A DNA stretch of 64,000 bases from Bacilli bacterium (GCA_036648855.1 JAVWCU010000001.1:3121-67120), one strand, 5' to 3'. Positions 18,470-64,000 are shown, counted from the stretch's first letter. Notes: generated by a model from the letters alone, not told the origin. A program made the numbers and translations.

Positions 18470-18850
18470 ATGGCAATATTAAAAATAACAGATGGAAGCA
18501 ACAATGAAATAGAAGTAAAAGGAAGGATGACATTTAAGATAAGCAAAGTAGTAGATGAAAATGGTGAAGAATCTCAAGTTTGTTTAGGCCAAATGGCAAC
18601 TCATAAATACTTTGAAGAGATAACTAAAATAGAAACAGATAGATTCAAATTAGAAAATGTAGAAGTAATAGAAGAAACTTTTGGAACAAATGATTTTAAT
18701 ATCTTATATGATTTTGAAGTCAACGATTTTGGATGATCTGTTAAAGAGAATTATTTATCAGAAGAAACTATCAATAAGATAGAAGAAGATGAATATAAAG
18801 ATGATGAAGGAGATAAATATATGCTCTTAGAAAAAGGAAGTGATAAATAA
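18470..18850 (+). CDS. acidic hypothetical protein (126 aa); one in-frame TGA (18734) read as Trp
   Basis: GGAGGT 7 nt upstream of ATG. Track fragment 18470..18736 continues in frame for 37 codons to TAA 18848-18850; checked codon by codon. TAATG overlap with the next gene. Confidence 0.55.
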
Positions 18851-19515
18851 TGGATATAAGACATGAAATGGAAGATGCAAAAGTTCAAGAAGCTATTTCA
18901 CTTAGAGAAAACTTTGAAAATAATATATCTAATGTTTGGGGCCACAGTCCTCTTGGTTTAGAAGCTAAATCTGCAGCTATGTCTATGTTATCTACTAAGA
19001 CAGGTTTATATGCAAGAGTACCTATTACTTGTAAAGCTAATGGATGTCCTTATGAAGATTCATGTGCATTGCTTCCATATGGATTAGCACCTCTTGGTGA
19101 AAAGTGTCCATGAGAAACTGCATTAATAGAAACAAGATATGCTGGCTATATGAAAGACTACGATTTAGATCAAGCAAGTTATACTGATTCAACTCTTATT
19201 AGCGAACTCATAAATATAGATGTAATGCTAGAAAGAACTAAAGCTTTAATGGCTAAAGAAGAAACTCCTATTACAGATGTAGTTGCAGGTATGACAGAAT
19301 CAGGGGAACAATATACTAGACCTGAAATTTCTAAAGCTTCTGAAATATATGATAAAAATCTTAATAGAAAAGAAAGAATATTAGACTTAATGCTTGGAAC
19401 TAGAAAATCTAAAAAAGGTGATAAAAATGAAAATATCTCTGTTATGGATATTTTACATGGAGCTATAGATCAAACAGAATTTATCATAGAGGAAAAACCA
19501 GATAATTTCAAGTAA
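18850..19515 (+). CDS. hypothetical protein (221 aa) with KANGCPYEDSC...EKCPW Cys cluster; one in-frame TGA (19111)
   Basis: fragments 18850..19113 and 19150..19515 share a frame with no TAA/TAG between them. Confidence 0.55.
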
Positions 19516-19560
19516 TAATATAGTTAGCAATAAAAAATAAATAAGAAAGGAAGTGTTTAC

Positions 19561-20115
19561 ATGGCAAGTATAGGTAGACAAATTGCAGAAAGTGCTAAGA
19601 ACATAGCAAGTGATTTTTATAATGGGGCTGTTAAAGGAGTTAAAAAAGCTAACTTTACAGTTGATAATGCTTTTAAAAAAAGCTCTATGCCAAACAAACT
19701 TAATAACAATGCTAGTAAAAAAAGTATCATTAATACTGTTAAAGCTATACAACCTGATGCACCAACAGATCAGATTAGAGGACTTCGATTAGGACCTAAT
19801 GGTGCTAAAATAAAAAATGCTCCTGTAAAAGCAAAAATGAATTATAACAACGGTTCTATTGGTGCACAAGCTGGTAATTTTGTTGGGGGCGGAACTAGAG
19901 ATTCTTTTAATGCTTATAAAAATATGAAAGGTGATAATAAGAGTATTATAAATTCTATTAAACAAGGACATAAAAAAGCAGATGGTAAATATGATACTAA
20001 GAAAATAGCAGGTACTGCTTTTGGAGTTGGAGTTGCTGGAAGAATAGCGACTGGCGGCGGACTTTACAAAGATCAATATGGTAATACAAATTTACCAGGA
20101 GTACCATTTATATAA
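19561..20115 (+). CDS. Gly/Lys-rich hypothetical protein (184 aa), possible virion internal protein
   Basis: AAGGAAG 7 nt upstream of ATG. TAA stop. No TGA. Confidence 0.55.
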   Translation: MASIGRQIAESAKNIASDFYNGAVKGVKKANFTVDNAFKKSSMPNKLNNNASKKSIINTVKAIQPDAPTDQIRGLRLGPNGAKIKNAPVKAKMNYNNGSIGAQAGNFVGGGTRDSFNAYKNMKGDNKSIINSIKQGHKKADGKYDTKKIAGTAFGVGVAGRIATGGGLYKDQYGNTNLPGVPFI

Positions 20116-20124
20116 GTAATAATT

Positions 20125-20153
20125 TAGTGCAGTTATATACTGCACTATTTTTA
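20125..20153 (+). terminator. rho-independent terminator
   Basis: TAGTGCAG-TTATATA-CTGCACTA followed by TTTTTAAAT. Confidence 0.6.
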
Positions 20154-20172
20154 AATAAAGAGGTGATACAAA

Positions 20173-20874
20173 ATGTTAGACTACGTTGGTAGAGTAGTTA
20201 AAAAAACTGGAAATGTAATAGTAGGCTTAGCTAATAGTGGCTTAGTAAGTGGAGCATCTAAACTTGGTACTGGAGTATTAAAAGCTGGTGTTGAAGGTGG
20301 AGCAGGCTTACTTAACAAAGGAATTAAAGGTGCTCAAAAGAACATACCTAAATTAAAAAATATCAGTGGAAAACAAATTAGCGATGGCGTAGGAACAGCA
20401 GTTAATAAAACCATGGTTGGAAGAGGATCAGATTATAAACCTAAAGGAAGCTTTAGAGGTTCTCGTAAAAGTAGCGGAAGACCAAAAACTACTTATGTAT
20501 CAACTAATGATTCTTTTGGAGCATTAGATGCTATAACTGATAGAGCTAAAACATATATGGATGGAGCTGCTCATATTTTACAAGGAGATAGTTATTTAAC
20601 TGGTAAACAAGCTTTAATAAAAACAGGCTCTGATAATTATATGCCTTTTGGTTTAAAAGCTACAGGTCTTGGTACTACATTAGCAATAGGAGCTTCAGCT
20701 GCTTCAGGAATACCAGATGCTGCTAAACAATGAAATGATGGTAGAAAAGGATATAATCAAGATACACAACCTATGAGTATTGCACCACAAACACCAGCTT
20801 ATGCTAATAATGGTGGGGCTACAGGTGATTTAGTTTTCGCTTTAAATAATCTTAGAAATGGAGGAATGATGTAA
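20173..20874 (+). CDS. Gly-rich hypothetical protein (233 aa); one in-frame TGA (20731)
   Basis: AGAGGTGA RBS. Fragment 20173..20733 continues in frame to TAA 20872-20874 (checked). ATG of the next gene overlaps the TAA. Confidence 0.55.
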
Positions 20875-22832
20875 TGGCTCTTAATAAAACATATTATGAA
20901 GACGGGAAAATAAAAACTGTTGAAAGTGTTAATAAAAAAGGCGTACCTAAGTGAAAAAAAATCTATAATAAAAGCAATGAATTAACAGGAAGATTAGATT
21001 ATGGACCTAATGGTAAACTTTCTAAAGAAAATTATTTTAATAAAAATTCTAGAATTATATCAGAAAGTGTAAGCAGTTATCATCCATCTTTATTAGTAAA
21101 TCATAAATACGATGGAGAAAATCATTTAAAACAAGTTATTCATTACACTGGTGAAACTTTAGATTATTCTATTATTAAAGAATATACAAATGGAAACTTG
21201 AGCTTAAAAGGTTATCAAAATTCTGGAGAATTGCCTGTTCTAGAATCTGTAAATAACGAAAATATTAAAATAAATACAGATAACAATTTAGAAGTTAACG
21301 CAGTAGATAAAGTGCAACAAGATTTATTTGATGAAGAATCATTAAAAAGTTCTGAAGCTTATTATGAACAGCAGTATAAAAATAGACTTGAAACTGAACG
21401 TCAAGAAAAAGAATATCAAGAAATGTTAGCAAAAGAACAAAGAAGAGAAGAAGGAGAAAGAAAAGCAAAAGAAAAACTTGAACAAGAAAAAATAAAAGAA
21501 CAAAAAAATGCTAATATTAATCAAGAAAAGAAAAGAAGAACTGGAGCATATAAAGATGGAACGCTAATAGGAGCGACAGAAGAAAGTAATTTAACATCTT
21601 CAAATTGAAAGGCCATTTCAAAAGAAACTCCTGTAGAGAATGTAGTAGAAGAAGTCATAGAAAACACACCTCAAATAGAGACAGCTTTACCAGAACTTAA
21701 AGTGCCTGACGATGCAATTAATGAAGCTAAGTTAAACAAAGATTTGGATAATTTAAATTCAGAATATAGTAACGCCAGAGTAAATATAGATTCTGAGCAT
21801 TCAGAAGCTTTAAAGATGAATCAAGAAATTGATAAGCCTAAAATAAAAGAAGCGAAAGAAAGGTTAAGAGCAGATAAAAAAGAAGCAAGAAAAGAGAAAA
21901 AACAAAGAAAGCAAATATCAAAAAAAGAAAGACGTGCTAACAAAAAAGATATAAGAAATACTAAAAAAAGTATCAAGCTGGTAAATAGAGAAGAAAGAAA
22001 AGAAGCATCTGAAGCTCTTAAAAAAGAAACTGAAATAACTAACTTAGATAAACAAGTAAAAGAAAAATATTATAATAGTAGACAACTAGAATTAGAAGAA
22101 ACATTTTCTGATACAGAAACTTTAGAGAAGATCAATAGAGATGCTGTTTGAAATCAAAGAGAAACTGATGTTGATTACTTTGATGACTGAGAACAAAGAA
22201 AAGAAGAACATGCAGTTAAAATAGAAAATGAAAAAGATATTCCAGATAGTATTAAAGAATATGAAAAAAGAAAAAAACAATATGAAAAAAGAAAAAAACA
22301 ATATGTACATGATAATCCAGAAGCTGCTGCAGAATTAGAAGTAAAAAGAGCAGAATTAGAAGCAAAAAGAGAAAAGAAAAAAGCTCTCAAAGAAGGTGTT
22401 GAAGAAACTGGAGAAGATGTCGCTAAAAATTTAAAGAAGTCTACTATGAGAAACTTCGGCCACGTAATGAACTTAGGTTTTGGTGTAATGGATTATAAAG
22501 ATTCAAGAGAAGCTGGTAATAGCGTAGGAAAGTCTGTAGTAAAAGCAGGGGCAGAATTTGCTAAAGGTGAATTACTTGGTGGATGATATATGGCGGCAAT
22601 GGCTGCTAAAGCTGTGCCTACAATAGCTGTATCTGCAATAGAAGGTGTTAATAAGATGTCTAGAAGCATGAACTCTATGCAAGGGCGACAAGTCTTTGGA
22701 GATTCTCAATTCATGGATACTCCTCAATTAGCTACCATGAGACAATCAGGTATGGAATTAGCTAAGATGAGTCAATATAATTTACAACAATCTATGATGG
22801 GTAATGAAGCTGAATATATGCATAGACTTTAA
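20874..22832 (+). CDS. 652-aa protein: N-terminal MORN/YwqK-like repeats, central Lys/Glu-rich coiled coil with tandem EYEKRKKQY repeat, Gly/Ala/Met-rich C-terminus; five in-frame TGA (20952, 21606, 22149, 22188, 22584)
   Basis: track fragments 21198.., 21702.. and 22590.. are all in frame with ATG 20874. Every gap was checked codon by codon with no TAA/TAG. A 21-nt tandem repeat lies at 22262-22303. Confidence 0.6.
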
Positions 22833-23567: not shown

Positions 23568-26500
23568 ATGGCATTAGCCAAATCACAAGCAGCTAAATTA
23601 AATGAAATAATGAGTGATCCTATTAAATGAGCACAAACTTTCCTTAGAACATTTAATTCAAAAACAAAACAAATAGAACCATGAACAGCTAGATGATATC
23701 AAGTAGAAATGTTAAGAGATAACCATACTAGAAAAGTATATAGATGTGGAAGGCGTATTGGAAAGACAGAGACAATGGTAGTTGAAATGTTATATCTTGC
23801 ATTTACTAAAAAGAACTTTAGAGTTTTAATGGCAGCACCCTACGAGAATCAAATTCGTAATATGTTTACACGTCTAAATGAATTAATAGCAGAATCTCCG
23901 TTAATAAAACAAGCAGTTGTTTCTACAACAAAAAACCCAGCTAAAATAGAATTCGCAAACGGATCTATGATACTGGGATTTACTACTGGGGACGATGCAG
24001 CTTCTGTCAGAGGACAGAGAGCAGATTTCAAAGATATATCAATATATATATTATTTGTTTAAAAGCTAAACCTCTTAGTAATAATTAGATGAGGTGATTA
24101 CAATGAATGACAAGAAATACATTAATAGAGAATGACTAAAAAAACAATTCGAAGAGTACAAAACTCCTTCATTAGTATCCACAATGACAGGCTATCCTAG
24201 AACTTGTATAACAAGATATGCTATTAAATATAATATCTATGAAAAGAAATATACAAGAGATAAGACTAATTATGTCAATGAAGATTATTTTAACAAAATA
24301 AATACTTCTGATAAAGCATATTTCCTTGGTTTTATAATGGCAGATGGAAATATGTATCAAAGAAGTAATGGTAAATATCAATTCTCTATTAAAATTAAAA
24401 GTTCTGATAAAGATATATTACTTAAATTTGCACAAGCAATTGACTTTAATATAGAAAAAATTACAGAAAGAAATGAAACTAGAAATGAAACAATTACAAG
24501 ATGTGCAGAAATCAAAATATACAATCAAACATTTTGTGAGAATTTAATAAAGCAAGGAGTTATTCCTAGAAAAACTGGAAAGGAATATATACCAAATATA
24601 AGTAGCAAATACTTAAAAGACTTTATTAGAGGCTATATAGATGGAGATGGATGAATAGGTAAAGATAACTTCCAGTTAGGATATTGTTCTTCTTCATATG
24701 AAATGATGCAACAAATTACTTCTTATATAAAAGAAGCTATTAATATAGACATGAAGATAAAAGAACAAAATAATATATATGTAGCAAAGATATACGCTAA
24801 AAAGAAAGTTTATCATTTATTAAAACATTTTTACTATGAAGGATGCACAGCTTTAGATAGAAAAAATAATTTAGCTAAACAAAAACAAATAGATTTATAT
24901 AACGATTTAATCGGTCTGCTATAATCTAGGTTAATTGACGGGAACAGGCTTAGAGCTTCATACACCAACTTATTATAGCGATACAATAAGGGCGTTGCTA
25001 ATCACAACGATATGGTAACAGAGATGAAGATTGCTTAATCCGCAGCCAAGCTCTTAATAGCTTTATTAAGATGAAGGTTCAACGACTAGTCCATTGGACG
25101 TAGGATTCAAGTGAATTCGAAACACCTAGCTAGAAAGATATAGTCTCGACATTTGGGGAAAACCCAAAGAGGATATATGGAAACGATATATCCGTAAGAT
25201 AACGTGAATATTTATAGATGAGGTTGACTTTATGAGCGAATACTGTTTTGAAGTTGTAGCAGCAGTAGCCATAGAAAGATCTGATATAGGAATAACAGTT
25301 TCTTCAACGCCGCTTGGTAAACGTAGTAAATTTTATCAAATGTGTACAGATACAAAAATGAATTATTCTCAACATTACCATCCATCAACTCATAATCCAA
25401 ACTGAGATTCTCAAATGGAAGCAGAGCTTAGAGCACAGTTAACAACAGAAGGTTACATACATGAAGTTTTAGCAGAGTTTGGTACACAAGAAAAAGGGGT
25501 GTTTGATAAAGACAAAATAGATGCTTCAATGAAAATATTGAATTATGCTTATAATGAATTAGATTTCTTCCAGCAAAAAGTTATAGCTGAAGAAGGAAGA
25601 GAAATGCCAGAAATGTTAATGTATAATCATTCTAATAGACCGCCAACAAATGTGTTTAGAACTATGGGAGTAGATTGAGATAAAAAAGATCATTGTCACA
25701 AACAACTTGCATAACTAATTGATTTTATCATATATTACATTTGAGGTGATTATATGATAACTAAAGAAGAATTAGAAAAATATATAAATAAAAAGATTTC
25801 TTTTAAGCAAGTATCAGTAGAATTAAATATTAGTTATAATACGGTTTTAAGATATGCAAAAAAATATAATTTAAAATCGGGAATAGGAACAAAAGGAGCA
25901 CAAAAACACACTATTAATGAAAACTATTTTGAAATGATAGATACAGAAGAAAAAGCTTATTGGTTAGGATTTATAGCTGCTGATGGAAATATCCATAGTT
26001 CTGTAAAAAACAAACCTATTAATAGATTACAAATAAATCTAAAAGGAAATGACATTGGTCATTTAAAAGCTTTTAATTCCACTTTGTTATCTTCTTATAA
26101 TGTAGAAGAAAAACAAGTAAACAAATATAATGTGTGTCAACTAAAAATAAATTCTACAAAGCTTTGTTCAGACTTGCAGAAATTAGGAATAACTCCGAGA
26201 AAGTCTTTAAATGTAGAAATGCCAATTTTGCCTAAAGAACTAATAAAACATTTCATAAGAGGGTATTTTGATGGGGATGGCAATATTAAAAATTTCACAG
26301 ATAAAAACGGAAGACATAGATACAATTTTAATATTGTTGGCGGCATAGATATGTTAACAGCTATTAAAAACAATATTCCTTGTGAAACATTGATATATAA
26401 TTTAAAAAGACAAGCCCCAATATACTCTTTAGAAACAACTAAAAAAGATAATCTTATTACAATTTATAATTATTTATATAAAAATGCTAATATATATCTT

Positions 26501-28751
26501 AATAGAAAAAAAGATATATTCGACAATTTAATGTCTCGCTTTACAGAAATGTAAAGGCAATAACCTTTTGAATTCAGGGAAACTCCAGAACGGACAACCT
26601 CTGAGCCAAGCCTAGAAATAGGAAGGTGCAACGACTATCGAAAACACGAATATCCGAGAAACACGGTTTTTGAAAGTGAGTAGAGTAGGGTCAAGCGACT
26701 CGAAGCGGAAGGGCTCTTAACAGATAAAGCTGAAGAGTATGATATAGTCTGAGCTATATGGGAACATATAGAAGGATGGAAATAGCGATTCCATTCGTAA
26801 CATAACTGAAATACGGAGCTTCGTCTTCTATATTAATACTTGACTATGATATGCAACTTGGCAAGTTTAAAGTATTTAAAAGAATAGAAGTTCCTAGATC
26901 AGAATACTCTTATGATGCAGCTGTTAATCTTATAATAGAATTAAATGAGATATATAATCCTTCATTTATATATTGTGATGCTGGTAGTGGTGAAATACAA
27001 ATTTATTAATTACATATAATAAGATTATTAAACTAATCGGAGGTATATGTATGTTTCCAATATGGATAAACAAAGCAATTGAATTAAGAAAAAACGGACT
27101 ATCTTACGCTAAGATAGGAAAGCTATTAAACACAGATAGAAAGAAGGTTAGTTTTTATCTACAAGAAAAAGGATATGGTCCTTCTAAAGCATATAAAAAA
27201 GCAAAGGAATTTAATCAACCAAATAAAAAAGCTATTAATGAAAATGTATTTGAAAAAATAGATACAGAAGAAAAAGCATATTGGTTGGGATTCATGTATG
27301 CTGATGGATGTGTTAATAGAACTTCTAACAGAATAGAATTATCTTTAAAAGAAGAAGATTATAGTCATATTGTTAAATTTAAAAACTTTTTAGAAAGTGA
27401 ACATATAATAGGAAAGAAATCTAAAACAATTAAAGATAAAACATATATAAGTTATCGACTTGGAATAACAAATGAAAAATTAAAAAATGATTTAATAAAG
27501 CACGGATGCGTGCCTAATAAAACTAAAGTTCTTCAATTTCCTAAATTAAATAAAAAACTTGTTAAACATTTTATAAGAGGATATTTAGATGGAGATGGAT
27601 GCATTACTCATCAAGCTACTTCTAAAATGAGTTTAGAAATATTAGGTACAGAAGAATTTTTAAGAGCTATATTAGATTATTATAATTTTCCAAATGACAA
27701 ATACATTTATACTTTTAAGCATTCAGATATAAAAAGGTTAATCTTATCTGGTCCAAAAGCTTTTGAAGTAATAGATGACTTATATAAAAAATCTAATATT
27801 TATTTAGAACGTAAATTCAATTTGTATAATAAATTCGCCCCTTTATTTAGAGATAAATAAAGAGTAGCGGGCAAAATCGGTAGAGGTGTTAGCGTGCTAG
27901 TACCGAGGTAACATATATGATAATCATATTGTACCGTAACGCATAGTGACTGAAAAGATATAATGTCGCCAAGAGTGTCCGCCACAGAGTCTTACCAACT
28001 CTCTTAGCCTAAGTAATAACTTAGGGTGAAAATGTATGCTAGACTGAACATGAAATAACATGTTGATGAAAATGAGTGAAAGCTCCAGAGCCTAAGATAA
28101 AAAGCTTAGGGTTAATAACATTCGGAATATCAAATAGAAAGATTACATATCTACGGAGAGGAGAATCCTCGTTCTGGATTAAAAGCCAAAGTTAAAAGAT
28201 GACAGTTTTCTAACAAGTTAGATATCATGGACCCAATAACAAAAGAAATAGAAAAGAAGCCACTTAAACCATTTATGGTCAATCAGCTTCAAATAGTCTT
28301 TGAAAGAGATAAATTAATATTATCTCCATACGATGCAATTCTTACTAAACAATTAGTAGATTATGAAGTTGAAAAAATAACAGAAGCGGGTATTCCCAAA
28401 TACACTTCTGAAAATGAACATTTTGTTGACGCATTAGGTTTAGCATATCTTGCAATGGTTCTTGAGTTTAAAGACTTAACAGGAGTTATAGAAGATATAC
28501 AAACTACTAGCGATTTCTTTATCTCTCATAAACAAGTAGGTGGAAATGCTATGAAAATTCAAGCAGAAACAAGAGCTAGAGCTGATAATAGAATAACAAA
28601 CTTTTATGAAAATACAGACTTTAGAGATTTAGAAGGCGATAGACAAAAGTGGGTAAAAGTAGATATGGAGTATCGTTCACCAAAAGTTCAATCAAGTAGA
28701 GGTGCAAGAGGTTGAGGTTCTAGGTCCGCAGGTAGTTTTAGCAGATTTTAA
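23568..28751 (+). CDS. terL: terminase large subunit, split into four exons (approximately 23568-24026, 25205-25675, 26830-26995 and 28215-28751) by three group I introns
   Basis: Exon 1: adenine-binding W-YQ plus Walker A RCGRRIGKTE. Exon 2: WIFIDE Walker B, SST coupling motif, NPNWDSQMEAELRAQL. Exon 3: IYCDAGSGE nuclease motif. Exon 4: LQIVFERDKLIL...NEHFVDALGLAYLAM nuclease C-terminus. The order matches T4 gp17. Each exon-frame ORF ends at a TAA inside the following intron. Six in-frame TGA across the exons. AAGGAGTG RBS before ATG 23568. Confidence 0.75.
24027..25204 (+). mobile_element. group I intron 1 in terL (boundaries approximate) carrying a LAGLIDADG endonuclease ORF
   Basis: splitting after GAT (..RGQRAD) and resuming at TGAATATTT restores RGQRADWIFIDE, which aligns with T4 RGNSFAMIYIDE. 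The 3' 300 nt are GC-richer and contain P7-like GACTA ... ATAGTC. The intron would end in G. Confidence 0.6.
24103..24924 (+). CDS. LAGLIDADG homing endonuclease (273 aa) with N-terminal HTH-like domain; two in-frame TGA (24133, 24652)
   Basis: motifs AYFLGFIMADGNM and FIRGYIDGDGW. Own RBS GAGGTGATTACAATG. TAA stop 24922-24924. Confidence 0.75.
25676..26829 (+). mobile_element. group I intron 2 in terL (boundaries approximate, +/-30 nt)
   Basis: non-coding 26555-26829 is GC-richer with CAACGACTA ... ATGATATAGTC, a P7-like pair, like intron 1. Confidence 0.55.
25754..26554 (+). CDS. LAGLIDADG homing endonuclease (266 aa), paralog of 24103..24924
   Basis: AYWLGFIAADGNI and FIRGYFDGDGNI. RBS GAGGTGATTATATG. 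No TGA. Confidence 0.75.
   Translation: MITKEELEKYINKKISFKQVSVELNISYNTVLRYAKKYNLKSGIGTKGAQKHTINENYFEMIDTEEKAYWLGFIAADGNIHSSVKNKPINRLQINLKGNDIGHLKAFNSTLLSSYNVEEKQVNKYNVCQLKINSTKLCSDLQKLGITPRKSLNVEMPILPKELIKHFIRGYFDGDGNIKNFTDKNGRHRYNFNIVGGIDMLTAIKNNIPCETLIYNLKRQAPIYSLETTKKDNLITIYNYLYKNANIYLNRKKDIFDNLMSRFTEM
26996..28214 (+). mobile_element. group I intron 3 in terL (boundaries approximate)
   Basis: HE ORF followed by about 350 nt of GC-richer structured RNA (27861-28214). The exon 4 reading frame opens at about 28215. Confidence 0.5.
27051..27860 (+). CDS. LAGLIDADG homing endonuclease (269 aa), third paralog
   Basis: AYWLGFMYADGCV and FIRGYLDGDGCI. RBS GGAGGTATATGTATG. No TGA. Confidence 0.75.
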   Translation: MFPIWINKAIELRKNGLSYAKIGKLLNTDRKKVSFYLQEKGYGPSKAYKKAKEFNQPNKKAINENVFEKIDTEEKAYWLGFMYADGCVNRTSNRIELSLKEEDYSHIVKFKNFLESEHIIGKKSKTIKDKTYISYRLGITNEKLKNDLIKHGCVPNKTKVLQFPKLNKKLVKHFIRGYLDGDGCITHQATSKMSLEILGTEEFLRAILDYYNFPNDKYIYTFKHSDIKRLILSGPKAFEVIDDLYKKSNIYLERKFNLYNKFAPLFRDK

Positions 28752-43886: not shown

Positions 43887-43920
43887 AATAATAACTCAAA
43901 TAAAAGGAGGAATGTTCAAA

Positions 43921-44589: not shown

Positions 44590-44598
44590 TAACCACAA

Positions 44599-44632
44599 GG
44601 AGAGGGAAAGAGATTTCTCTCTCTTTTTTATT
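44599..44632 (+). terminator. rho-independent terminator after the tube gene
   Basis: GGAGAGGGAAAGAG-ATTT-CTCTCTC followed by TTTTTTATT. Confidence 0.6.
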
Positions 44633-44675
44633 GCATATAATAAAAACATTAAACTTATACATAAAGGAGGACAAT

Positions 44676-48351: not shown

Positions 48352-48389
48352 TCATATAATAAAAATAAAAACATAACGGAGGTAACAAC

Positions 48390-48812
48390 ATGAAAAAAGA
48401 AACAACTAAAAAAACAGAAGAAACTTTAAAAGAGTTAAATACAATAGCAAAAAAAGCTGTTAAGAAAATAGAAGAACAAGAAGTTATTTTAGCTAAAGAA
48501 AAAACAATAGAAAAGATAGCAGAAGACTTAAAAAAGGAACATAAAGAAGTATATATAACTGATATAGCAGGACTTCAAATAGTTTGGAGAAAATTAAAAA
48601 GAAGTGAATACAAAGAATTAATGACAACTACATTTGATGAAAATGAAGAATTACAATTCTTAGAAAAGCAAGATTTTGTTGCTAAGAAAGTTATCTTATT
48701 CCCAGAAAACGTAGAAGAATTAATAGAAGAGTATGCAGGTATTGCAGATTTAATAGCTACAGAGTCAATGGTTAAAACAGGATTTGGATTAACAAATACA
48801 AGAGCTGTGTAA
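48390..48812 (+). CDS. putative tail assembly chaperone (140 aa)
   Basis: position between tube genes and tape measure. Acidic, helical. ACGGAGGT RBS. Confidence 0.35.
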   Translation: MKKETTKKTEETLKELNTIAKKAVKKIEEQEVILAKEKTIEKIAEDLKKEHKEVYITDIAGLQIVWRKLKRSEYKELMTTTFDENEELQFLEKQDFVAKKVILFPENVEELIEEYAGIADLIATESMVKTGFGLTNTRAV

Positions 48813-48813
48813 T

Positions 48814-49599
48814 ATGAGAATATCAAAGCATATAGAAAATCCAAAAACAGAAGCCGACTTCGATTTAATAATTAAGCAGATGTTCGCTGAATATGGCAAC
48901 ATTTGCTTTGGTGAATACAATGATGAAATATATATTTATAAATTATTAAACAGAAAGGCTTATAAGAATTTAATTTCAAATCCTAATTTAACCCAAATAG
49001 AAAAAGAAGACGAAGTATGTAAAGAATGTATATTATGGCCTAGAGACTTTAACCCAGATGTATGTGATGCTGGTTTGCCTACTCATTTATTTGAGCAAAT
49101 AATGACTAACTCTTTTTTAACTGGTGTTGATGATATGATAACATTAATAGAGGTATCGAGAGAAGAAGCTGATAATTTAGATTCACAAATGAGTTGCATT
49201 ATAAACGAAGCTTTTCCTAATTATTCTATAGAAGAAATAGAAGAGTGGGATATGATTAAGTTTTGTAAAATGTTTACAAAAGCAGAATGAAAATTAAAAA
49301 GCTTAAGAAGTTTGACTTTTGAAACAGATATGCTTGATTTCTTAAAAGAAATGACTCATGAAGATGAGTCTGTAAAGCAAGAAGCTACAAAACAAGAAGA
49401 AACAAAAGAAGTTCAACAACCTACAAGCAATTCTAAAAAAGTAAAAGTAGGTTCAAAAGAAATGACTCCCGAAGAATATAAGCAATATCAAGATATACAA
49501 AGAATGTTTCCAGATATAGATTGGGGAGCAGATGCAATGTATACAGGTTATGAAACTCAAACTATAAGTTCAGTACCTACTCCACTTAGAGTAAAATAA
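48814..49599 (+). CDS. hypothetical protein (261 aa), possible second tail chaperone; one in-frame TGA (49288)
   Basis: fragments 48814..49290 and 49312..49599 share a frame; the gap was checked. Confidence 0.4.
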
Positions 49600-55600: not shown

Positions 55601-56152
55601 GTACCTGTTCAATATAAAGACCACTTTAAATCTTTCATAGACGAAAGAAGTAAAAGTGAACGAAAAAAAATATTAAAAGAATTACCAGAATATCTACGTA
55701 AGCCTTTACAAATTGCTTGGGGTGAAAATGTTGACAAAATAGATAGTAATGGAAAGTTTTTCAAAAAACATGAATTACCATCTATGGCATGAAAAGGATG
55801 AAAGCCTAGCATAAATCTAAAACATGTTAAGATGAAAACTATTCAAAACGAAGGTATGTTGCTTTCTAATTTTGGATATTACGATTCTGAAAAATCTAAA
55901 ATGGAATATCATATGGCACCTGATATAAATAATTTTGATAAAGGCGGTAGCAGTGGCTTAAGTTATATGGCCAGTATGACGGCAGCATTGTCAGGAGTTG
56001 GAATGACAGTACAAAACATTACTGTTGAACCAACATCCGCTCCAGGATTATGAATAGTTGGAGATATAAAACAAACTGCTAAAGATATAGGTAAGATAGG
56101 TGATTATGCAGTAAACTCAGGAATTCAAACTCTAACTTCACTATTATTCTAA
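49625..56152 (+). CDS. tail tape measure protein (2175 aa) with 13 in-frame TGA
   Basis: seven track ORFs (49625, 50381, 51257, 52940, 53978, 55229, 55832) are all in one frame. Every gap was checked codon by codon and contains only TGA, never TAA/TAG, until TAA 56150-56152. Gly-rich hydrophobic stretch GALIGAGIGLAVSAI near the C-terminus. Sits after the chaperones. GAAGGTGA RBS with TTG start. Confidence 0.65.
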
Positions 56153-56555: not shown

Positions 56556-59500
56556 ATGGCTTATAATAAAAAGACAACCGTATATGAATCTAATTATGAT
56601 TTAGCTTTAAAAGCTAAGTTAAAACAACAAGCTATCAAAAAGATGGAAGATAGAAACACTATGTCTAAAGAAGATATGTTTAACTATTTAGAATACTTAG
56701 CTCCTGGTAATGATTATGTAAAAGAAAGCAATCTAATAATCAAAGCTAGTAAAAATAAAGTATTGAAAAATAAAAGTTTAAGACCCGATTACAAAGACGT
56801 TAATGATATATTAAAAAACTTAAAAGAATATAATTTTTATGACATTATATCTAATAAAAACCAGACAGGTTCTGAACTGATTAAAAAGACTATAGATTTC
56901 AATGGGAAGATATTTCATAGTAATCAAAAAGGAGGTTCATCAAATGAATCTTTAGGTACATGGAATGAATCTTTTAGAAATTTCACTAGTTTAAAAAAAC
57001 AAGCTAAACTAGGAAATGAAGCAACTGTATTTGGATTTGACTTAGAGACTGTCGGAAGTTCACTTCCTGAAGGCATGTGGAAAGCGGATCACATAACAGA
57101 GTTTTCTATGCAAGAGATGAATTTAGCAACTAATGAAATATTAAGAAATGACACTATTGCTATTGGTCTAACAGAAGACCAAGGTAAGAAAATTATTGAT
57201 GATATAGAAAAAGCTATTAAAAGTGGAACTTTAGAAAAGAACGAAAATTTAAGAGTTTCTGCTATGAGATATAGTTTATATGGAGATGATAAAGTTACAT
57301 ATGAAAAAACAGCTGAAGGATATTATAAATTTACAAATTTTATAGATTCTAAAAAACATGAAATGTATAACATTGAAAAAATCAAAGCTGGTGTAAACAA
57401 GTTCGTCTCTATGGGTAATGACACTGATTATATAAATGGAGTAAGAGCAGATCACTATTATGTAGGACAATCAATAAAACATATGAAAGACAAAGTAGTT
57501 GATAAACAAACTGCTATGTTATTAGGACAAAATCATTTAGGACATGATAATCCTATTATGCAATATCAAATGTCTTTATGAAATGAACTATATAAAGATA
57601 AAACTAATATGTTCGAAAATCTAGATTTAACAATGTCACCAAATCAAACAATAGATTTACTTGGAGGCCTTAGACTTCATTCAGAATATTACGATACAGG
57701 AGATTTATATCCTAAAGCAAAAGGATTAAATATGTCTGAAGTTAAAACTATTAGAGGGCAAGAATACTTAGTACAAAGTCACTTAAAAAAATGGTTTGAA
57801 CAAAAAGGATTAAAACCCCATTTAGCAGAAGATGATGTTACAGCTTTACTTGGATTATTTACTATGGATTCAGAAATATTAAAAAGTGGAACTTTAGTTG
57901 ATTTAATAGGCGATAAGATGTCTAAAGTTAATTATAAAGAAACAGCTTTAGAAACAAATAAGCATATTTTAAAAGCTAAAAAAAGAGCTGGTCTTTATCA
58001 AGGTAAAGGTTATTTAAATTTTGCTAATGACAAAGAAGGGAATATATATACTGCCAGTGATCATATCTTAAGTGATACAGATGGATTTGCTAAATCTAAC
58101 GGAGGAGTTATTCATAATGATTTCAATGTTGGTGCAGGAATCAATAAAGGGGCATTTTATGATTTAAAAGATATACAAGAAATAACTATTGATGACAATA
58201 TAAGATCTCAAATAGATAAAGTAGCACCAGAGTATTCTGGAAATAAATTATACCATGTTAAACTTGGAATGATAACTTCAGATAATCACAAAGATACTAG
58301 ACTTGGAAATTTAGAGCAAAATATAATATTAAAAAGTGAACAAGAATTACAAGGATTCTTAAGTTCTACATTTGATGTTGTAGCAAAAAGAGATGAAAAT
58401 GGAAATATACAAATAGCTAAAGAACATATAGAAGATTTTGATATTAGAAAACTATCAGATGTTAAAGGAAGAGCTGTAGCTAAAGATGTTAATAAAAATT
58501 ATGATAAAAATCATAATGAATTATTAGAATCAGCTGTAGAAGCTCATAATAAAAAGCTATTAGTTTCTAGAGCTGAAAATTCATTTTTACAAGATGATTC
58601 ATTTAATAAATTATCAAAAGCTTTAACTTTAAAAGATGACTTAAAAGATTTCTTAGAACAAGAAAATGTAAAAGTAGAAAGTTTAAAACAAAAAGAAATA
58701 AACCAAATTATGTCTGCTAAAGTTGCTAGTGGCAATATGCCTTTAGGTTTAAATGAAGTACAGCTTGAACATGCCAAAGAAATAATAAATAATGCATTGT
58801 CTTACAAAAAAGATTATGCAGATCCTAATTCAATTACAAGAGTACTTGATTCATCTATAGACAACTATTCATCAGCTATGATTTATGTTGAAAACAATAA
58901 TAATGTATTGTCTAAAATAATAGATACATTAAAACAAAGTGAAATGTTTACAAAAGAAGATGGTAGATATAAAAATTCAACTAAAGAATATAGACAAGAA
59001 GTATTCAATAGAGTTTACAAAAAAGTGAAAGAAGAAACTGCAGAACATATTTATAGAAATCTAAATGTTAACAACCCTATAAAAAACAAAAGTATTTTAA
59101 ATGACGAAACTTTACAAGCTGCTGTAAGTGAATTTAGAAACATATATGAAGTTGATTATAACAAGATAGCTAAAACTCCTAAAGTAAACTTTGTTAGTAT
59201 TGCTAAACCAGAAGAATTACAAAATTTAGTAAAGTTAGATATATCAACAAAAGGTGCTTCATATAAATTAACTGATGCTGCTATAGATGCTGTCTATGGC
59301 AAAGATTATAAAAGAAAAATAGATAATGCTCATAAAAATGTAGCTGTTGCAAAAATGTTTAATTTATTAATGGAAGATGAAAATTTAAAAGAAACAGATG
59401 CTTTTAAAGGTATTATGTCTAGATACGGATATAATGAAAAGACTAAAAGTTTTAAAGAAAATATAAATCATATAGATATATCTGAGCGTATTGTTTCTGG

Positions 59501-62500
59501 CATGCAATCATTAAAAGAAAAGAATGTTACAGCTGGAATAGTTAATACAAAAAGAGCTTTTATGAAATCTTTAGAAGGAACCTCTGGTTATACCAAAGCT
59601 TTAAACAGCGAAGAAGTATTAAATAAAGTAGATGATATAGCAAAAAGTGTTTTAGATAATTTAGATATGACAATTATAAACACAGCTAAACCAAAAGATC
59701 AAATATCAGAATTAGTTGAAAATAAGATATTAAAACATTATATAGCTGATAGCAATACTGTTGAAAAAGCTCAAGATTGGGTTAATAATCCTCAATTAGA
59801 AATGTTATATAAAAAAGGAAAAAAAGATTTAAAAGAATATCTTACTGATACAATATATGGATTTACTAAATTAGGAGCAGAAGTCTCTGTACAAGAAAAT
59901 GGTGCATTAATTGTTTCTAGAAATGGTGAAACAAAAGCTTTAGAAACAATACCTAAAATACTTTTAAATGATAAAACTTTATACACAGAAATAGGCAGTC
60001 AAAAGTTTCAGTTTAATAGAGTGTTAGATATTAAAGGTGGTACAAGATTAGAAGGAGATGTAAAGACTACTATAAGTAGTATCAATAAGTATAGCAATAG
60101 TGCTTATGTTGATAAGTTAGCAGAAGAATTTGATCTTAATAAAGTTTATGATTCTTTATGGTCACGTATAGGAAGAGATATAAATGAAATAAGAAAAGGT
60201 TCAACTATTAATGGATTCAGTGGAAATGATATCATATCGAATTACAATGTTGATATGGGTGAAATCAAAAATGTATTATATGATATATTTAATAAAGATG
60301 GCAATCATTATGGATTATTTGATAACATAGATTTCCCTGATAAACAAATACAAGAAACATTAAAAAAGAAACTAGAAAATGTAGGTCCTAATAAACTTGA
60401 TAATAAAGGACAATTAAAAGAACTAGGGCCAGATATTACTAGAGATATTGCAAAAGATACTATTCATATGTTGCAAGAATTAGCTAATAAACAAGGTTTT
60501 ACAGATGACTTTAAAACAATCGTAGCTCAATTAGGATTATCTGGACAAGAAAAAAGAGTAGCTGGATTAACAGCCTACTCTGGAATAGAAAGACCTACAA
60601 ACTCTGTATTTGGTGTATTCGATAATGTACAAAGACCGCCTATTACTCAGTCTGGTAATGCAAAATTCTTAAGAGAATCTGATATAGAAAAAGCTAAAGA
60701 TTTAAATGTATTAGCTGGAAACGTAATTAGTTCTGCGTCTATGAATGCTAAAGGATATAGAAATTTTGATGGGGTAGGAAAAGCTTCAACAGATGTAATG
60801 ATGGATATATCTTATGTATCTACAAACGCTTTACATGTATTAATGGAGAGTAACTTTGAAGACGTTATTAATAAATCTAGTGTAGAATATGGAACAAAAG
60901 AAGCATCCAAAAAAGCTATGGAGCATTTAAAGAGTACACTATCTACATTTGAACAAGAAAGAATTATTGACTCTAGAGTTCATGAAGCTGTATATGGATT
61001 ACAAACAGCTAATACTCAAAAGCTTAGTAGAAATCTAGATGCAATAGGTATGTCTAAAGAACTTACAGATGAAGAATTCAAAAAGCAATTTGATTTCATA
61101 ACTAATCATAGAGGCAATTTTTCATATTCTAATGGTAAGCTAGAATTTAAATCTTCTGTTGGTACATATGTTAAACGAGGAGAAGGAACTATACAAACTA
61201 AAGGTTTTGCAGATTTACCTACATCGTTCTCTTCTAAAATGAAAGATGGAGTATTTAATTTTAATTTCTATAATGAAAATGGAATGAAACTTAGAGATAA
61301 TGAAATAAATAATTTAATAAATGATAATATAGAACACTTTATTAAAGATGGCAAACTTGTAGATAAAGCAGCTTTGCCAAAAATATTAGAAGATTTATTA
61401 GAAACTAAAAATATTAAAGGTCAATATGCTATAGAAGATGCAGCCGCTTTAGGATACGCTAAAACAATGACTAGCGGTGCTGAAAAAGGTATGACTGATA
61501 TTGTATATGCTACTACTGGTAGATACAATAAAGAAATAGAAAAAGTCTTTAAAAATATTGGCATGTGGGATGATGTTAAAGCAAAAGTTTTAACAGAAGA
61601 AGGAACAGATGCTATATTGAAAAGAGGTATGGATAGATTTATAGGTAAACATACAGATATGACTCCTGAGCAAAATATACTTCATGGAACTAGCTTTAAA
61701 AATATTAAAGAATTAAAATCAGCAATGGAAACAGAAAGACATATGAATTCTAAATTATTGTTTGAACATGTACTTGGCGGTAAGACTCATATGTTAGCAA
61801 ATGATAATATATTAGGACATGAAAACTTTGGAGCGATGTATCAAGGTTCTTTATCTAAAGCTATAGATCTTTTTGGTAAAAATCATAAAGATGGTTCAGA
61901 TGGAGCTATTAAAGAAATTATTGACATCATGAATAATGGTGTTGAAAAAACTTTAAAAGATGGTACTGTAAAGAAGATAGATGCTTCAGAATTTCAATTT
62001 TTAGAAAACTGGAATCTTAAAGATGGTAAAGTTGACATAGGAAACATAGGAGTTCAATATAAAAATGGTCGATTCCATATCAATGAAAATTTTTTAACTA
62101 ATCCAGACAATGTATCTAATCTTAATTCAAAGAAATTCAATAATTTATTAAGAGAGATAGATTCAAGATTTGCTAAAGACGACTCTTCTGATGATAGATT
62201 AGTATGGAATAATGTTTATATGCAAACTGGAGATGTGGACGAAAAAGGAACACCTGTTTTAAAAAAAGTAGATGAAGTCGTTGGTTCATTTTTCACTAGA
62301 GAAATAGATGGAAAAAGAGTAATACTTGGTACTCAATCTAGAGAAAATAATAAATATGTTACAGATGTAGAAACACAATCTGGAGTAACAGATGAATATT
62401 TCCAACTAAAAAAAGCTATTAAAAAAAATAAAATAGATTTAATAAATAATCAAAAGTCATTAAATGAAACTGATGATAAGCATTTAAAAGCATCGCTAAT

Positions 62501-63416
62501 AGAAGAAAAAATTTCATTAGAAGCAAAAGGGCATAAATTAGAATCTGAATTAAGCTCTTATGATGGTGCTGTAAAAACAATGAAAGTATCTGATCAAGAA
62601 TTATCTATTTATAACAGAGTTGCTATAACTCAATCCCATGTTAATAAAGTCAATGATTTAATAAGCGAAGGTAAAATAACTGATGAATCATTAGCAGTAG
62701 ATTCTCTAAGAGGACATGTTATAAAAAATGTTGATGGCCAAATAATGTTAGAAGGCCTTGGGCTTGAAAATGAATTAAATTCAAATAAAGATGTCTATAG
62801 CAAAGGTGGAATTAGAGTACTAGATCCTTTTGTATCAAGATTAAAAGAGAAATTGCTTTTCAATGAATTAGAGGATGAAGTATTAACAATGAAATATGTT
62901 AATAAACATCCAGAACTTCTAGACATATATAATAAAGCAGATAGCAGAGGAGAAACAATAGGAATTAATAAAGCTAAAGAAATACATCAAGGACAGCTCT
63001 CTATAGATTCATATAATTTCAATCTTAGCTCACAAACATCTGAACAAGTTAAAGCATTAGAAAATAAAGGTTTTAGAAGAACTAATATAAATGAATTATC
63101 TTTTGATGCTGATGATGTTGCTACAGAGAATTTATTAATTGACTTTGGTGAGGAATTTAAAGAACATAGATATTTAGCAGTTCCTGGCAACGGTAAATCT
63201 ATAATGGATGAAGATCTTAGAAAAGAAAGTCAAAATCAATTAGCAAGTCTTCAACATAGATACCAAGAGTATGCATCTTACAAAGGAAAAGATCCTGAAA
63301 AAACAGAGCAATTATGAAATAACATCATTAAACAAAGAGATGATGTCATGGATACAATAGAAAATGAGATGTACGGTAAGCATGGTATATTCCATAATGC
63401 TTCTAAAGTTGAAATA
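56556..63416 (+). CDS. giant virion-associated protein (2286 aa); two in-frame TGA (57579, 63315)
   Basis: fragments 56556..57581 and 57609..63317 share a frame. Reading TGA 63315 as Trp adds 33 codons to TAG 63414-63416; checked. Lies downstream of the tape measure gene. Confidence 0.6.
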
Positions 63417-64000
63417 GATAATGCTTCTTATCGTTTAAAAGCTTCTGGTATAATAGGAGACCAAACTAATCCTACTCTTAGAAACTATGCTTCTCATAAT
63501 GGAGTTAATGTTATAGATTCTTCTAAAGCTGGAGTATTAGATATCGCTATAATAGATGGAAAGACAATAACTGAATTAGAAAGCAAAGGAGTTTATCATG
63601 ATTATAAATTTGTATCTAGAGATCAAATGGATAACATGGGATTCTTTAGAGAAGACAGGCTTAAACAATTTGGATTTGAAGATGATGCTAGCAGTACTGC
63701 TATTGAAAAAATGGAGGATTTTTTAAAGACTCATGGTACTATGGATTTATCCGACCGTTATCCAAATACAAAAACAGGTTCTATCTCTACTGCTAGAGTA
63801 TTTTTAGACAGCACTTTAACTGGAAACCAAACTAAGGTTTCAGCATCGTTAGCTCTTAAAGCTAATGGAGACTTTGATGGAGATTCATTCTCTTCTTTCC
63901 ATTTAGAAAAATATGATAGCGAAGGTCGTAGAATAGACGGAGCTTATTATTCTAAAGTAAAAATTGATATAACTAAACAACTCAATGACGAAGGAATACT
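63368..64000 (+). CDS. two-barrel RNA-polymerase-like protein, N-terminal 211 aa (gene runs off the right edge)
   Basis: Frame +2, open from TAA 63329-63331; ATG 63368. GKHGIFHNASKV (63374-63409) resembles the beta motif GRHGNKGVISKI. NGDFDGDSFSSFH (63863-63901) resembles the beta-prime NADFDGD..H motif. No stop to the window end; checked codon by codon. Confidence 0.5.

What the first reader, a model, noticed from the sequence alone, without database searches (positions are those of the whole stretch)
18470..64000. TGA is read as Trp in the late/structural (plus-strand) genes, while the entire early (minus-strand) block contains no in-frame TGA
At least 17 plus-strand genes are full length only if TGA is a sense codon. 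About 38 in-frame TGA codons are present, 13 of them in the tape measure gene. Every gap between ORF-track fragments was checked and contains TGA only, never TAA/TAG.

Where the homolog is known, TGA sits at positions where Trp fits the aligned T4 gp17 sequence or a conserved family motif: TerL NPNW-DSQ and W-IFIDE, and LAGLIDADG YIDGDG-W. This favours Trp over the Gly reading of code 25.

In contrast, the roughly 20 minus-strand genes at 1-17815 (about 4800 codons) have zero in-frame TGA. They encode all Trp as TGG and stop only with TAA/TAG. If TGA were used uniformly, about a dozen would be expected there.

Such asymmetry is expected for a phage that switches the host code late in infection, not for a genome from a uniformly code-4 host.

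The highly abundant late proteins (sheath, tube, the 477-aa capsid candidate) also avoid TGA.
Basis: partly seen in the sequence, partly recalled or inferred. Interest (0 to 1): 0.9.

Follow-up and report, generated by a model that had tools for sequence, protein, structure and literature searches.

The report
Phage late genes read TGA as tryptophan
This is part of a large gut phage genome whose structural genes use the stop codon TGA for tryptophan while a neighbouring block of genes avoids TGA entirely, a real pattern that has already been described for other gut phages.

Summary
With refined gene models, the plus-strand structural block (18470-64000) has 41 in-frame TGA codons in 14 of 31 genes, 13 of them in the tape measure gene. 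The minus-strand block (1-17815; about 4,700 codons, 16 TGG) has none.

TGA means Trp. All 8 TGA sites in the spliced terminase and 11 of 13 in the tape measure align with Trp that standard-code relatives encode as TGG. None aligns with Gly.

The asymmetry is not chance (Fisher p = 0.001). It recurs in relatives, including one whose sampled late genes use TGA for 38 of 54 Trp codons.

A native code-4 host is unlikely. A-ending synonymous codons make up 73-98% of each pair, yet TGA is 40% of Trp codons late and 0% early. Close relatives have no in-frame TGA, and relatives sit in Clostridia-type bins.

This matches the stop-codon-recoded gut phages of Borges et al., which include TGA-to-Trp lineages with standard-code replication genes. 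It is a new member of a known kind.

Not shown:
- No suppressor tRNA was found; the window has no tRNA and the rest of the genome could not be retrieved.
- The "early" label is inferred.

Corrections: the major capsid protein (35386-36600) carries 2 TGA, and one small conserved minus-strand gene ends in TGA.

The parts
1..17815 (-). TGA-free gene block: 25 ORFs of 40 aa or more, 4,735 codons, 16 TGG, 0 in-frame TGA. Function mostly unknown. Presumed to be translated before any code change.
   Evidence: No Pfam, PHROG, NCBIfam or PDB function. Eight intrinsic-terminator-like sites lie on the minus strand, several of them just downstream of gene ends.
11593..13773 (-). 726-aa protein with a two-barrel single-chain RNA polymerase fold (QDE-1 / RDR2 / phage gp66 / P23-45 gp96 class). 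It has an invariant C-terminal D-x-D-x-D motif (GMDTDYDG), 1 TGG and no TGA.
3990..4130 (-). Conserved 46-aa gene that ends in TGA, followed two codons later by an in-frame TAA. It is the only credible TGA-terminated gene in the window.
   Evidence: about half its residues match a 48-aa gene in relative L200 that ends in TAA, by eye
18470..64000 (+). Recoded structural block: 31 genes, 14,544 codons, 41 in-frame TGA against 61 TGG. All complete genes end in TAA/TAG.
18470..22832 (+). Four recoded genes of unknown function, interspersed with g19561 (19561-20115, no TGA): 18470-18850 (1 TGA), 18850-19515 (1), 20173-20874 (1), 20874-22832 (5).
   Evidence: Homology continues across the TGA sites against relative L003. 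Counts.
23568..28751 (+). Large terminase gene in four exons: 23568-24026, 25205-25681, 26809-26988, 28125-28751. The spliced ORF is 580 aa with 8 TGA and 1 TGG.
   Evidence: PHROG terminase match spans the exons. Up to 80% identity to intact homologues of about 573-618 aa. All 8 TGA sites align with W. Boundaries.
24103..24924 (+). LAGLIDADG homing endonuclease ORF in the first terminase intervening sequence, with 2 TGA. Paralogues at 25754-26554 and 27051-27860 have none.
   Evidence: Pfam LAGLIDADG_3 E 5e-12. Counts.
30129..32267 (+). Portal protein, 712 aa, 2 TGA and 3 TGG.
   Evidence: PHROG portal E 4e-54. Aligned across both TGA sites (W and A in L003).
35386..36600 (+). Major capsid protein, 404 aa, 2 TGA and 2 TGG.
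   Evidence: PHROG major head E 1e-25. Orthologues carry Pfam Phage_capsid_4. 73% identical to L003; the TGA sites align with W and F.
37125..39261 (+). Two recoded genes flanking the TGA-free g38042 (38042-38803): 37125-38042 (1 TGA, aligns with W) and 38803-39261 (1 TGA).
41014..47264 (+). Tail sheath (41014-43854) and two proteins of PHROG family 9206, placed as tail tube by position (43912-44589, 44676-47264). Together 0 TGA and 9 TGG in this genome. Orthologues in relative L189 do carry TGA.
47257..49599 (+). Two recoded genes flanking the TGA-free g48390 (48390-48812): 47257-48351 (1 TGA) and 48814-49599 (1 TGA, aligns with a TGG-encoded W in L190). Both are single genes in relatives.
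49625..56152 (+). Protein in the tape-measure position, 2,175 aa, TTG start, 13 TGA and 13 TGG.
   Evidence: Start. 119 full-length homologues. TGA sites are W or aromatic. 11 of 13 are W in the all-TGG relative P0132/L190.
56556..64000 (+). Giant protein, more than 2,481 aa and cut by the window end, with 2 TGA and 8 TGG. It carries a conserved D[FYH]DGD motif. Homologues are 2,920-3,028 aa.

Best explanation
The window is an end portion of a large tailed-phage genome. Relatives' contigs are 125-265 kb, and the phage comes from a gut or faecal community. Its tail sheath is distantly related to those of Bacillus and Moorella jumbo phages.

The genome carries two coding regimes.
- The plus-strand structural module covers terminase, portal, capsid, tail, tape measure and a giant protein. 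It uses TGA as a tryptophan codon for 40% of Trp codons.
- The divergently transcribed minus-strand block contains no in-frame TGA, so a standard-code host ribosome can translate it.

Most likely mechanism, inferred by analogy with published recoded phages: the host reads TGA as stop. The TGA-free block is expressed first; it includes a two-barrel RNA-polymerase-like gene. A TGA suppressor encoded outside this window then lets ribosomes read TGA as Trp. The suppressor is probably a tRNA with anticodon UCA charged with Trp, possibly helped by release-factor or synthetase functions. Until that happens, structural genes cannot yield full-length protein; the tape measure gene alone has 13 TGA.

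Shown here: TGA = Trp, the block asymmetry, and its conservation in relatives. Inferred: the host's code, the timing, and the suppressor.
For: 1. Reading TGA as sense restores full-length orthologues.
- The spliced TerL is 580 aa, against about 573-618 aa for the full-length homologues.
- The TMP is 2,175 aa, against 119 homologues of 2,085-2,186 aa.
- Portal, MCP and other genes align across their TGA sites.

2. TGA corresponds to Trp.
- All 8 TerL sites are W in P0004 and P0036. Their genes contain only TGG and no TGA.
- 11 of 13 TMP sites are W in P0132, whose gene has 25 TGG and 0 TGA. The other two are F and Y.
- Gly never predominates.

3. The asymmetry is significant and recurs.
- Window: 0/16 early versus 41/102 late Trp codons with the refined gene models. 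Fisher p = 0.0011, computed on 40/101 before the tape-measure start was refined.
- Relative on scaffold_64: the homologous block has 16 genes, 17 TGG and 0 TGA. The adjacent structural genes have 7 TGA and 4 TGG, and its TMP region has 38 TGA and 16 TGG.
- L012: 0 TGA and 10 TGG against 17 and 22.
- L004: 14 TGA, all in structural genes.

4. It is not a native code-4 genome.
- A-ending synonymous codons make up 73-98% of each pair (85-95% in the late block), yet TGA is only 40% and 0% of Trp codons.
- Relatives at 60-76% TerL or 71% TMP identity have no in-frame TGA and no TGA stops.
- Relatives sit in MAG bins named Clostridia, Lachnospiraceae, Clostridium, Bacilli, Sarcina and Romboutsia.

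5. The pattern matches published TGA-recoded gut phages, which show recoded structural and lysis genes, standard-code replication genes, low GC, TGA-stop depletion in relatives and a recoded intron endonuclease.

6. The TGA-free block encodes a confident RNA-polymerase fold. It also has one conserved gene ending in TGA. Both fit expression under the standard code.
Against: - No tRNA of any kind is in the window or within 10 kb of TerL in 24 relatives.
- No release factor or TrpRS was linked to this family.
- The rest of this genome could not be retrieved.
- The host is not identified. MAG bin names are weak evidence, and 'Bacilli' could in principle include code-4 lineages.
- The minus block has no experimentally or sequence-annotated early function. 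Single-chain two-barrel polymerases of crAss-like and P23-45 phages are virion proteins made late, so the polymerase fold does not fix the timing.
- The early-block test rests on only 16 Trp codons in this genome.
Confidence: 0.8

Rival explanations
1. The host natively uses genetic code 4 (a mollicute-like or other TGA=Trp bacterium). The phage simply mirrors it, and the TGA-free minus block reflects low Trp content or chance.
For: GC is 29%. The minus block has only 16 Trp codons. One relative sits in a MAG labelled only 'Bacilli bacterium'.
Against: - With 73-98% A-ending synonymous codons, a free code 4 predicts about 90% TGA. Observed values are 40% and 0%.
- The TGA-free block recurs in relatives whose late genes are up to about 70% TGA.
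- Close relatives have zero in-frame TGA over thousands of codons.
- Borges et al. report about 90% of genes recoded in phages of natively recoded (code 25) hosts. Here 14 of 31 late genes and none of the early ones are recoded.
Confidence: 0.07
2. The asymmetry is real but not temporal. The minus block is a module of different ancestry or constraint, for example recently acquired from a standard-code phage or expressed late but at a different level. TGA absence then says nothing about a timed switch.
For: The minus-block proteins diverge faster (40-49% identity to relatives) than the structural proteins (about 80%). Their function is unknown. Within the late block, TGA use is also uneven: sheath and tube have 0 of 9, the 477-aa protein 0 of 7.
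Against: The block is syntenic and TGA-free in several relatives with different degrees of late-gene recoding. That argues for sustained selection against TGA rather than recent acquisition.
Confidence: 0.1
3. TGA encodes glycine (code 25), as in phages of Absconditabacteria and Gracilibacteria.
For: Such phages exist. One pairwise alignment placed G opposite the last TerL TGA.
Against: In the 100-sequence TerL alignment that same site is W in 99 sequences. Across all 21 TerL and TMP sites the aligned residues are W or aromatic, never predominantly G.
Confidence: 0.01
4. The TGAs are genuine stops. The plus-strand genes would then be fragmented pseudogenes, separate small genes, or assembly errors.
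For: Under table 11 the fragments are ORFs of 100-500 aa.
Against: - TAA/TAG are completely absent from merged ORFs of up to 2,175 codons.
- Homology continues across every tested site.
- TGA falls on conserved Trp columns.
- The 692-aa minus-block protein (9406-11484) is found with an identical sequence in two separate sequencing runs, which argues against an assembly artefact.
Confidence: 0.01

Closest known systems
TGA-recoded (code 4) gut phages of Borges et al. (Agate, Jade and other 'gemstone' clades), bioRxiv 10.1101/2021.08.26.457843
   Same: - TGA aligns with Trp.
- Structural genes are recoded while another gene block stays in standard code.
- GC is low, and TGA is almost unused as a stop.
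- Very close standard-code relatives exist.
- An intron homing endonuclease carries TGA.
- Genomes are large and associated with Firmicutes.
   Different: - Clade membership could not be tested because no reference sequences were available.
- No suppressor tRNA, RF1 or TrpRS 'code change module' was found in the window.
- No lysis genes are in the window.
- The standard-code block here is not recognisable replication machinery. It is a block of unknown genes that includes a two-barrel RNA-polymerase-like protein.
crAss-like phages with block-wise dual coding (Yutin et al. 2021, PMC7886860; Mgcod, bioRxiv 10.1101/2022.06.29.495998)
   Same: The genome is divided into blocks that use different codes, with opal or amber reassignment in the late block. 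These phages also have introns and inteins with homing endonucleases, and a giant polymerase-type protein in the structural block (from my own knowledge of those papers).
   Different: This phage has a tail sheath and a long protein in the tape-measure position, so it is a myovirus-type phage and not Crassvirales. Its relatives are binned with Firmicutes, not Bacteroidetes.
Lak megaphages (TAG recoded to Gln)
   Same: These are large gut phages with stop-codon recoding in late genes and phage-encoded suppressor tRNAs or release factors.
   Different: The codon and amino acid differ (TAG to Gln), the genomes are about 550 kb, and the host is Prevotella.
Phages of natively recoded hosts (code 25 Absconditabacteria phages; mollicute phages with code 4)
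   Same: In-frame TGA is read as sense.
   Different: In those phages about 90% of genes are recoded, with no early/late split. Here one block has none, and TGA is under-used relative to codon bias.

Membership tests
Stop-codon-recoded ('alternatively coded') phage, TGA-to-Trp type | In-frame TGA in conserved genes; reading it as sense restores full-length orthologues | tested here: met
   TerL, TMP, portal, MCP and others
Stop-codon-recoded ('alternatively coded') phage, TGA-to-Trp type | TGA positions align with Trp in relatives that use TGG | tested here: met
   8 of 8 TerL and 11 of 13 TMP sites are W in genes containing TGG only
Stop-codon-recoded ('alternatively coded') phage, TGA-to-Trp type | Recoding is concentrated in structural or lysis genes, while part of the genome stays compatible with the standard code | tested here: met
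   41 TGA in the structural block against 0 in the minus block, replicated in relatives. No lysis genes are in the window.
Stop-codon-recoded ('alternatively coded') phage, TGA-to-Trp type | Phage-encoded suppressor tRNA(UCA) or other code-change genes (RF1, TrpRS). Reported in only about 35% of published TGA-recoded genomes. | tested here: inconclusive
   No tRNA in the window or near TerL in relatives. The remainder of the genome is unavailable. Pattern and TrpRS scans did not reach relatives.
Stop-codon-recoded ('alternatively coded') phage, TGA-to-Trp type | The host uses the standard code | tested here: inconclusive
   Indirect evidence only: zero-TGA close relatives, Clostridia-type MAG bins, and TGA under-use against AT bias.
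Stop-codon-recoded ('alternatively coded') phage, TGA-to-Trp type | Low GC, and TGA depleted as a stop codon in the lineage | tested here: met
   GC 29%. None of 27 and 20 ORFs in relatives L003 and L005 ends in TGA. Only one credible small gene in the window ends in TGA.
A named Borges clade (Agate, Jade or Sapphire) | TerL falls within the clade in a phylogeny | not testable with these tools
   No reference sequences of those clades were accessible. Relatives' contig sizes of 125-265 kb fit the large-genome clades.
Phage of a native code-4 host | TGA is the dominant Trp codon throughout the genome, in all gene classes | tested here: not met
   0 of 16 in the minus block and 40% in the plus block, despite 73-98% A-ending synonymous codons
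Code 25 phage (TGA = Gly) | TGA aligns with conserved Gly | tested here: not met
   W or aromatic residues at all 21 TerL and TMP sites

The most novel reading that the evidence does not exclude
This phage family may offer a graded natural series of code change. Close relatives use TGA for 0%, about 40% and about 70% of late-gene Trp codons, always beside a TGA-free block.

In the most novel reading, that TGA-free block encodes a compact two-barrel RNA polymerase that transcribes the recoded late genes. Late expression would then be locked twice, by a phage polymerase and by a codon switch. The switch might also use something other than a recognisable suppressor tRNA, since none was found near any sampled region.
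Probability: 0.15. Interest if true: 0.6.

Novelty: new member of a known kind. Interest (0 to 1): 0.3.

Why it matters
This is a clean, well-replicated example of a phage genome written in two codes. Standard annotation (table 11) would shatter its structural genes. Otherwise it confirms a published model and does not open a new one.

Its practical value has three parts:
- It shows that this uncultured family of large Firmicutes-associated myovirus-type phages must be annotated with TGA = Trp in the structural module.
- The family contains standard-code, half-recoded and heavily recoded members at 70-80% protein identity. That makes it good material for reconstructing how a stop codon is captured step by step.
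- The TGA-free block contains a polymerase-like gene, which could link the transcriptional programme to the translational one.

Tried and rejected
1. Finding the source genome. Exact 38-mer searches of IMG/VR, JGI metagenomes and GTDB genomes gave no match. The one window protein looked up (9406-11484) occurs with its exact sequence only on Logan contigs of 7.5 kb or less. A megablast of window 20800-32300 against GenBank phages gave only a trivial 39-bp hit.

2. Finding a suppressor tRNA.
- ARAGORN and Rfam found nothing in the window, and ARAGORN found nothing in 24 relatives' loci.
It returned 120 loci, 23 of them with a tRNA(tca), but none on a known relative's contig and none sharing proteins with the window.
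- Walking along IMG/VR contigs yields only 2-9 kb per scan and was abandoned.

3. Finding a code-change module. A TrpRS alignment scan of IMG/VR gave 9 loci, none on relatives' contigs.

4. Rfam detects no group I or II intron in the TerL intervening sequences, even at E <= 1.

5. The sigma-70 promoter scan of the minus block was uninformative, with fewer sites than in shuffles.

6. phmmer of the spliced TerL against PDB found nothing, including T4 gp17.

7. Profile-profile comparison of the giant protein with the 726-aa polymerase-like family was negative, at probability 0.3%. The giant protein's polymerase nature rests only on a short motif.

8. An apparent TGA-containing minus-strand ORF in relative L012 proved to be a spurious antisense ORF.

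9. Selenocysteine was considered and rejected. There are 41 sites, and they fall on conserved Trp columns.

Full report
**Observation**

The window has 29% GC. Under table 11 the plus strand beyond 18.4 kb is a string of same-frame ORF fragments. With TAA/TAG as the only stops these merge into long ORFs.

I refined the gene models in two ways.
- The tape measure gene starts at TTG 49625, behind an AAGGTGA ribosome-binding site.
- The large terminase is spliced from four exons.

The plus-strand block then holds 31 genes and 14,544 codons. It has 61 TGG and 41 in-frame TGA in 14 genes, 13 of them in the tape measure gene. No internal TAA or TAG remains. Off-frame TAA+TAG occur at about 9.5% of codons, so such ORFs cannot arise by chance.

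The minus-strand block (1-17815) has 25 ORFs of 40 aa or more, 4,735 codons, 16 TGG and no in-frame TGA. Nothing there merges under table 4.

**What TGA means**

The spliced terminase is 580 aa. It is up to 80% identical to uninterrupted homologues of about 573-618 aa.

In an alignment of 100 homologues, the eight TGA positions are W in 47-100 sequences, and in 99 or 100 at five of them. None is G. This is not circular: P0004 (locus L005) and P0036 (L003) have W at all eight sites, and their genes contain only TGG and no TGA.

The tape measure product has 119 full-length homologues. Of its 13 TGA sites:
- five are invariant W;
- six are majority W;
- two are mostly Y.

In P0132 (L190), whose gene has 25 TGG and no TGA, 11 of the 13 sites are W and the others are F and Y. 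Portal, capsid and several smaller genes align across their TGA sites with a standard-code relative. The aligned residues are W, F, A or V. So TGA is decoded as Trp. Gly (code 25), true stops and selenocysteine are excluded.

**The asymmetry**

| Comparison | Minus (early) block | Plus (late) block | Source |
|---|---|---|---|
| This window, Trp codons that are TGA | 0 of 16 | 41 of 102 | |
| scaffold_64 relative (L200/L201) | 0 TGA, 17 TGG in 16 genes | 7 TGA, 4 TGG in adjacent structural genes | |
| Same phage type, tail region (L189) | not sampled | 38 TGA, 16 TGG | |
| IMG/VR relative L012 | 0 TGA, 10 TGG | 17 TGA, 22 TGG | |
| NCBI contig JARCCX010000309.1 (L004) | 0 genuine TGA (little of the block sampled) | 14 TGA, 31 TGG | |

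For the window, Fisher's exact test gives p = 0.0011, computed on 40 of 101 before the tape-measure start was refined. Per codon, 13 TGA would be expected and none is seen (p = 2e-5).

More telling is the codon bias. A-ending members of synonymous A/G pairs make up 73-98% of each pair in both blocks. An unconstrained code 4 would therefore put about 90% of Trp codons at TGA.

In L012, one apparent exception was a spurious antisense ORF. The TGA-free block is thus a conserved property of the family.

**Host code**

Relatives at 60-76% terminase identity or 71% tape-measure identity have no in-frame TGA and no TGA stop codons in the sampled 20-26 kb (L003, L005, L190).

Family members occur in MAG bins named Clostridia, Lachnospiraceae, Clostridium sp. 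and Bacilli, Romboutsia and Sarcina. The nearest isolated phages by tail sheath, at 27-32% identity, infect Bacillus and Moorella.

None of this identifies the host. Together with the codon-bias argument, it makes a native code-4 host unlikely.

**Mechanism**

The window contains no tRNA. The regions within 10 kb of the terminase in 24 relatives also contain none. I could not retrieve the rest of this genome. I also could not reach other parts of recoded relatives.

The proposed mechanism is therefore an inference from the published model, not something shown here. In that model a phage-encoded TGA suppressor is expressed from standard-code genes and licenses translation of structural genes.

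One small point fits TGA acting as a stop in the minus block. The conserved 46-aa gene 3990-4130(-) ends in TGA with a TAA two codons later. Its 48-aa homologue in a relative ends in TAA.

**Is the minus block early?**

Its proteins match no Pfam, PHROG, NCBIfam or PDB family convincingly.

The largest conserved protein (726 aa, 11593-13773) has homologues only in this phage family, at 40-49% identity. It has an invariant GMDTDYDG motif.

An AlphaFold model built from 40 homologues is confident, with pLDDT 85 and pTM 0.82. It matches only two-barrel single-chain RNA polymerases:
- plant RDR2 and fungal QDE-1;
- Thermus phage P23-45 gp96;
- crAss-like phi14:2 gp66.

A phage polymerase in the standard-code block would fit an early gene that transcribes later genes, as YonO does in SPbeta (PMC5467207). 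However, homologous enzymes of crAss-like and P23-45 phages are virion proteins, so this is suggestive only.

Two other observations bear on the block. Eight intrinsic-terminator-like hairpins lie on the minus strand, several of them just downstream of gene ends. In most relatives' contigs the terminase lies 10-25 kb from a contig end, so the block probably sits at a genome terminus.

**Comparison with what is known**

Borges et al. (bioRxiv 10.1101/2021.08.26.457843) describe the same phenomenon:
- TGA-to-Trp and TAG-to-Gln recoding in several gut phage clades that infect standard-code Firmicutes and Bacteroidetes;
- recoding of structural and lysis genes, with replication genes in standard code;
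- low GC and loss of TGA stops in standard-code relatives;
- relatives above 90% ANI that differ in code;
- preferential recoding of a group I intron endonuclease;
- suppressor tRNAs detectable in only about 35% of TGA-recoded genomes.

Block-wise dual coding is also described for crAss-like phages, and software exists to annotate it. The present locus meets every defining feature I could test. It is a new member of a known kind.

1. The capsid protein is the 404-aa gene 35386-36600, and it has two TGA (PHROG major head protein; Pfam Phage_capsid_4 in orthologues). The 477-aa protein has no family match.
2. Sheath and tube genes lack TGA here (0 of 9 Trp codons), but their orthologues in relative L189 carry TGA. 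Abundant proteins are therefore not systematically protected.
3. The Trp after DGDG in the first LAGLIDADG endonuclease is N or C in its two paralogues, so it is not a conserved-motif argument.
4. The gene with five TGA at 20874-22832 is not the terminase. The terminase spans 23568-28751.

**Verdict**

Novelty is low, and interest is about 0.3.

Noticed in passing
window 23568-28751 (+): The large terminase gene is split into four exons by three intervening sequences of about 1.13-1.18 kb (24027-25204, 25682-26808, about 26989-28124). Each carries a free-standing LAGLIDADG endonuclease ORF in a different frame from the exons, so they are not inteins. In all three, the 5' exon can end in T and the insert in G, as in group I introns, and an ATAAC motif recurs near each 3' end. 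Rfam finds no intron family even at E <= 1. Relatives have zero or one insert, or an intein, in this gene.
   Followed up: partly
[not shown]
   Followed up: yes
window 56556-64000 (+); L189 16915-26001; L190 16785-25547: A giant protein lies downstream of the tape measure gene, separated by a 98-aa ORF. It is more than 2,481 aa here and 2,920-3,028 aa in relatives, where a second protein of about 3,000 aa follows. It carries a conserved D[FYH]DGD motif like the catalytic loop of two-barrel polymerases. It has no Pfam match and no profile similarity to the 726-aa protein.
   Followed up: partly
window 15124-15182 (-): A full-length type III hammerhead ribozyme lies on the coding strand between two minus-strand ORFs. 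It scores 53.7 bits against a gathering score of 48.5, and the catalytic core is intact. It was not found in six relatives' loci.
   Followed up: partly
window 16467-16519 (-): A sub-threshold match to the twister-P1 ribozyme (33.8 bits against a gathering score of 67.2; E 5e-4). It is also intergenic and on the coding strand of the minus block.
   Followed up: no
window 2831-3415 (-): A 194-aa ORF with a weak match to GIY-YIG group I intron endonucleases (NCBIfam TIGR01453 E 2e-5; PHROG homing endonuclease E 0.01). It lies in an ORF-poor stretch (2316-3541), so there may be another intron in a minus-strand gene.
   Followed up: no
window 3990-4130 (-): A conserved 46-aa gene ends in TGA, overlaps a possible GTG start of the next ORF by four bases (GTGA), and has an in-frame TAA two codons downstream. 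Its homologue in a relative ends in TAA.
   Followed up: yes
window 20874-22832 (+): A 652-aa ORF with five TGA and no TGG. Only its last 130 residues or so match the 139-aa orthologue in relative L003. The first 520 residues are a Lys/Glu-rich extension absent from that relative.
   Followed up: no
window 22874-23563 (+) and 29804-30106 (+): A 229-aa protein with a weak terminase-ATPase (Terminase_6N) match sits just upstream of the real terminase. A Cpn10 (GroES-like) gene sits between the terminase and the portal, and is conserved in relatives.
   Followed up: no
relatives' contigs (L004, L005, L008-L028, L200, L201): In most long contigs of this family the terminase lies 10-25 kb from a contig end. 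Two independent assemblies end about 8-10 kb beyond the 717-aa gene. This suggests a fixed genome end or terminal repeat near the window's start.
   Followed up: no
L003, L005, L190 versus window, L004, L012 versus L189, L200/L201: Members of one phage family at 60-82% protein identity span no TGA, about 30-45% TGA, and about 70% TGA among late-gene Trp codons. None uses TGA as a stop in the sampled genes.
   Followed up: partly
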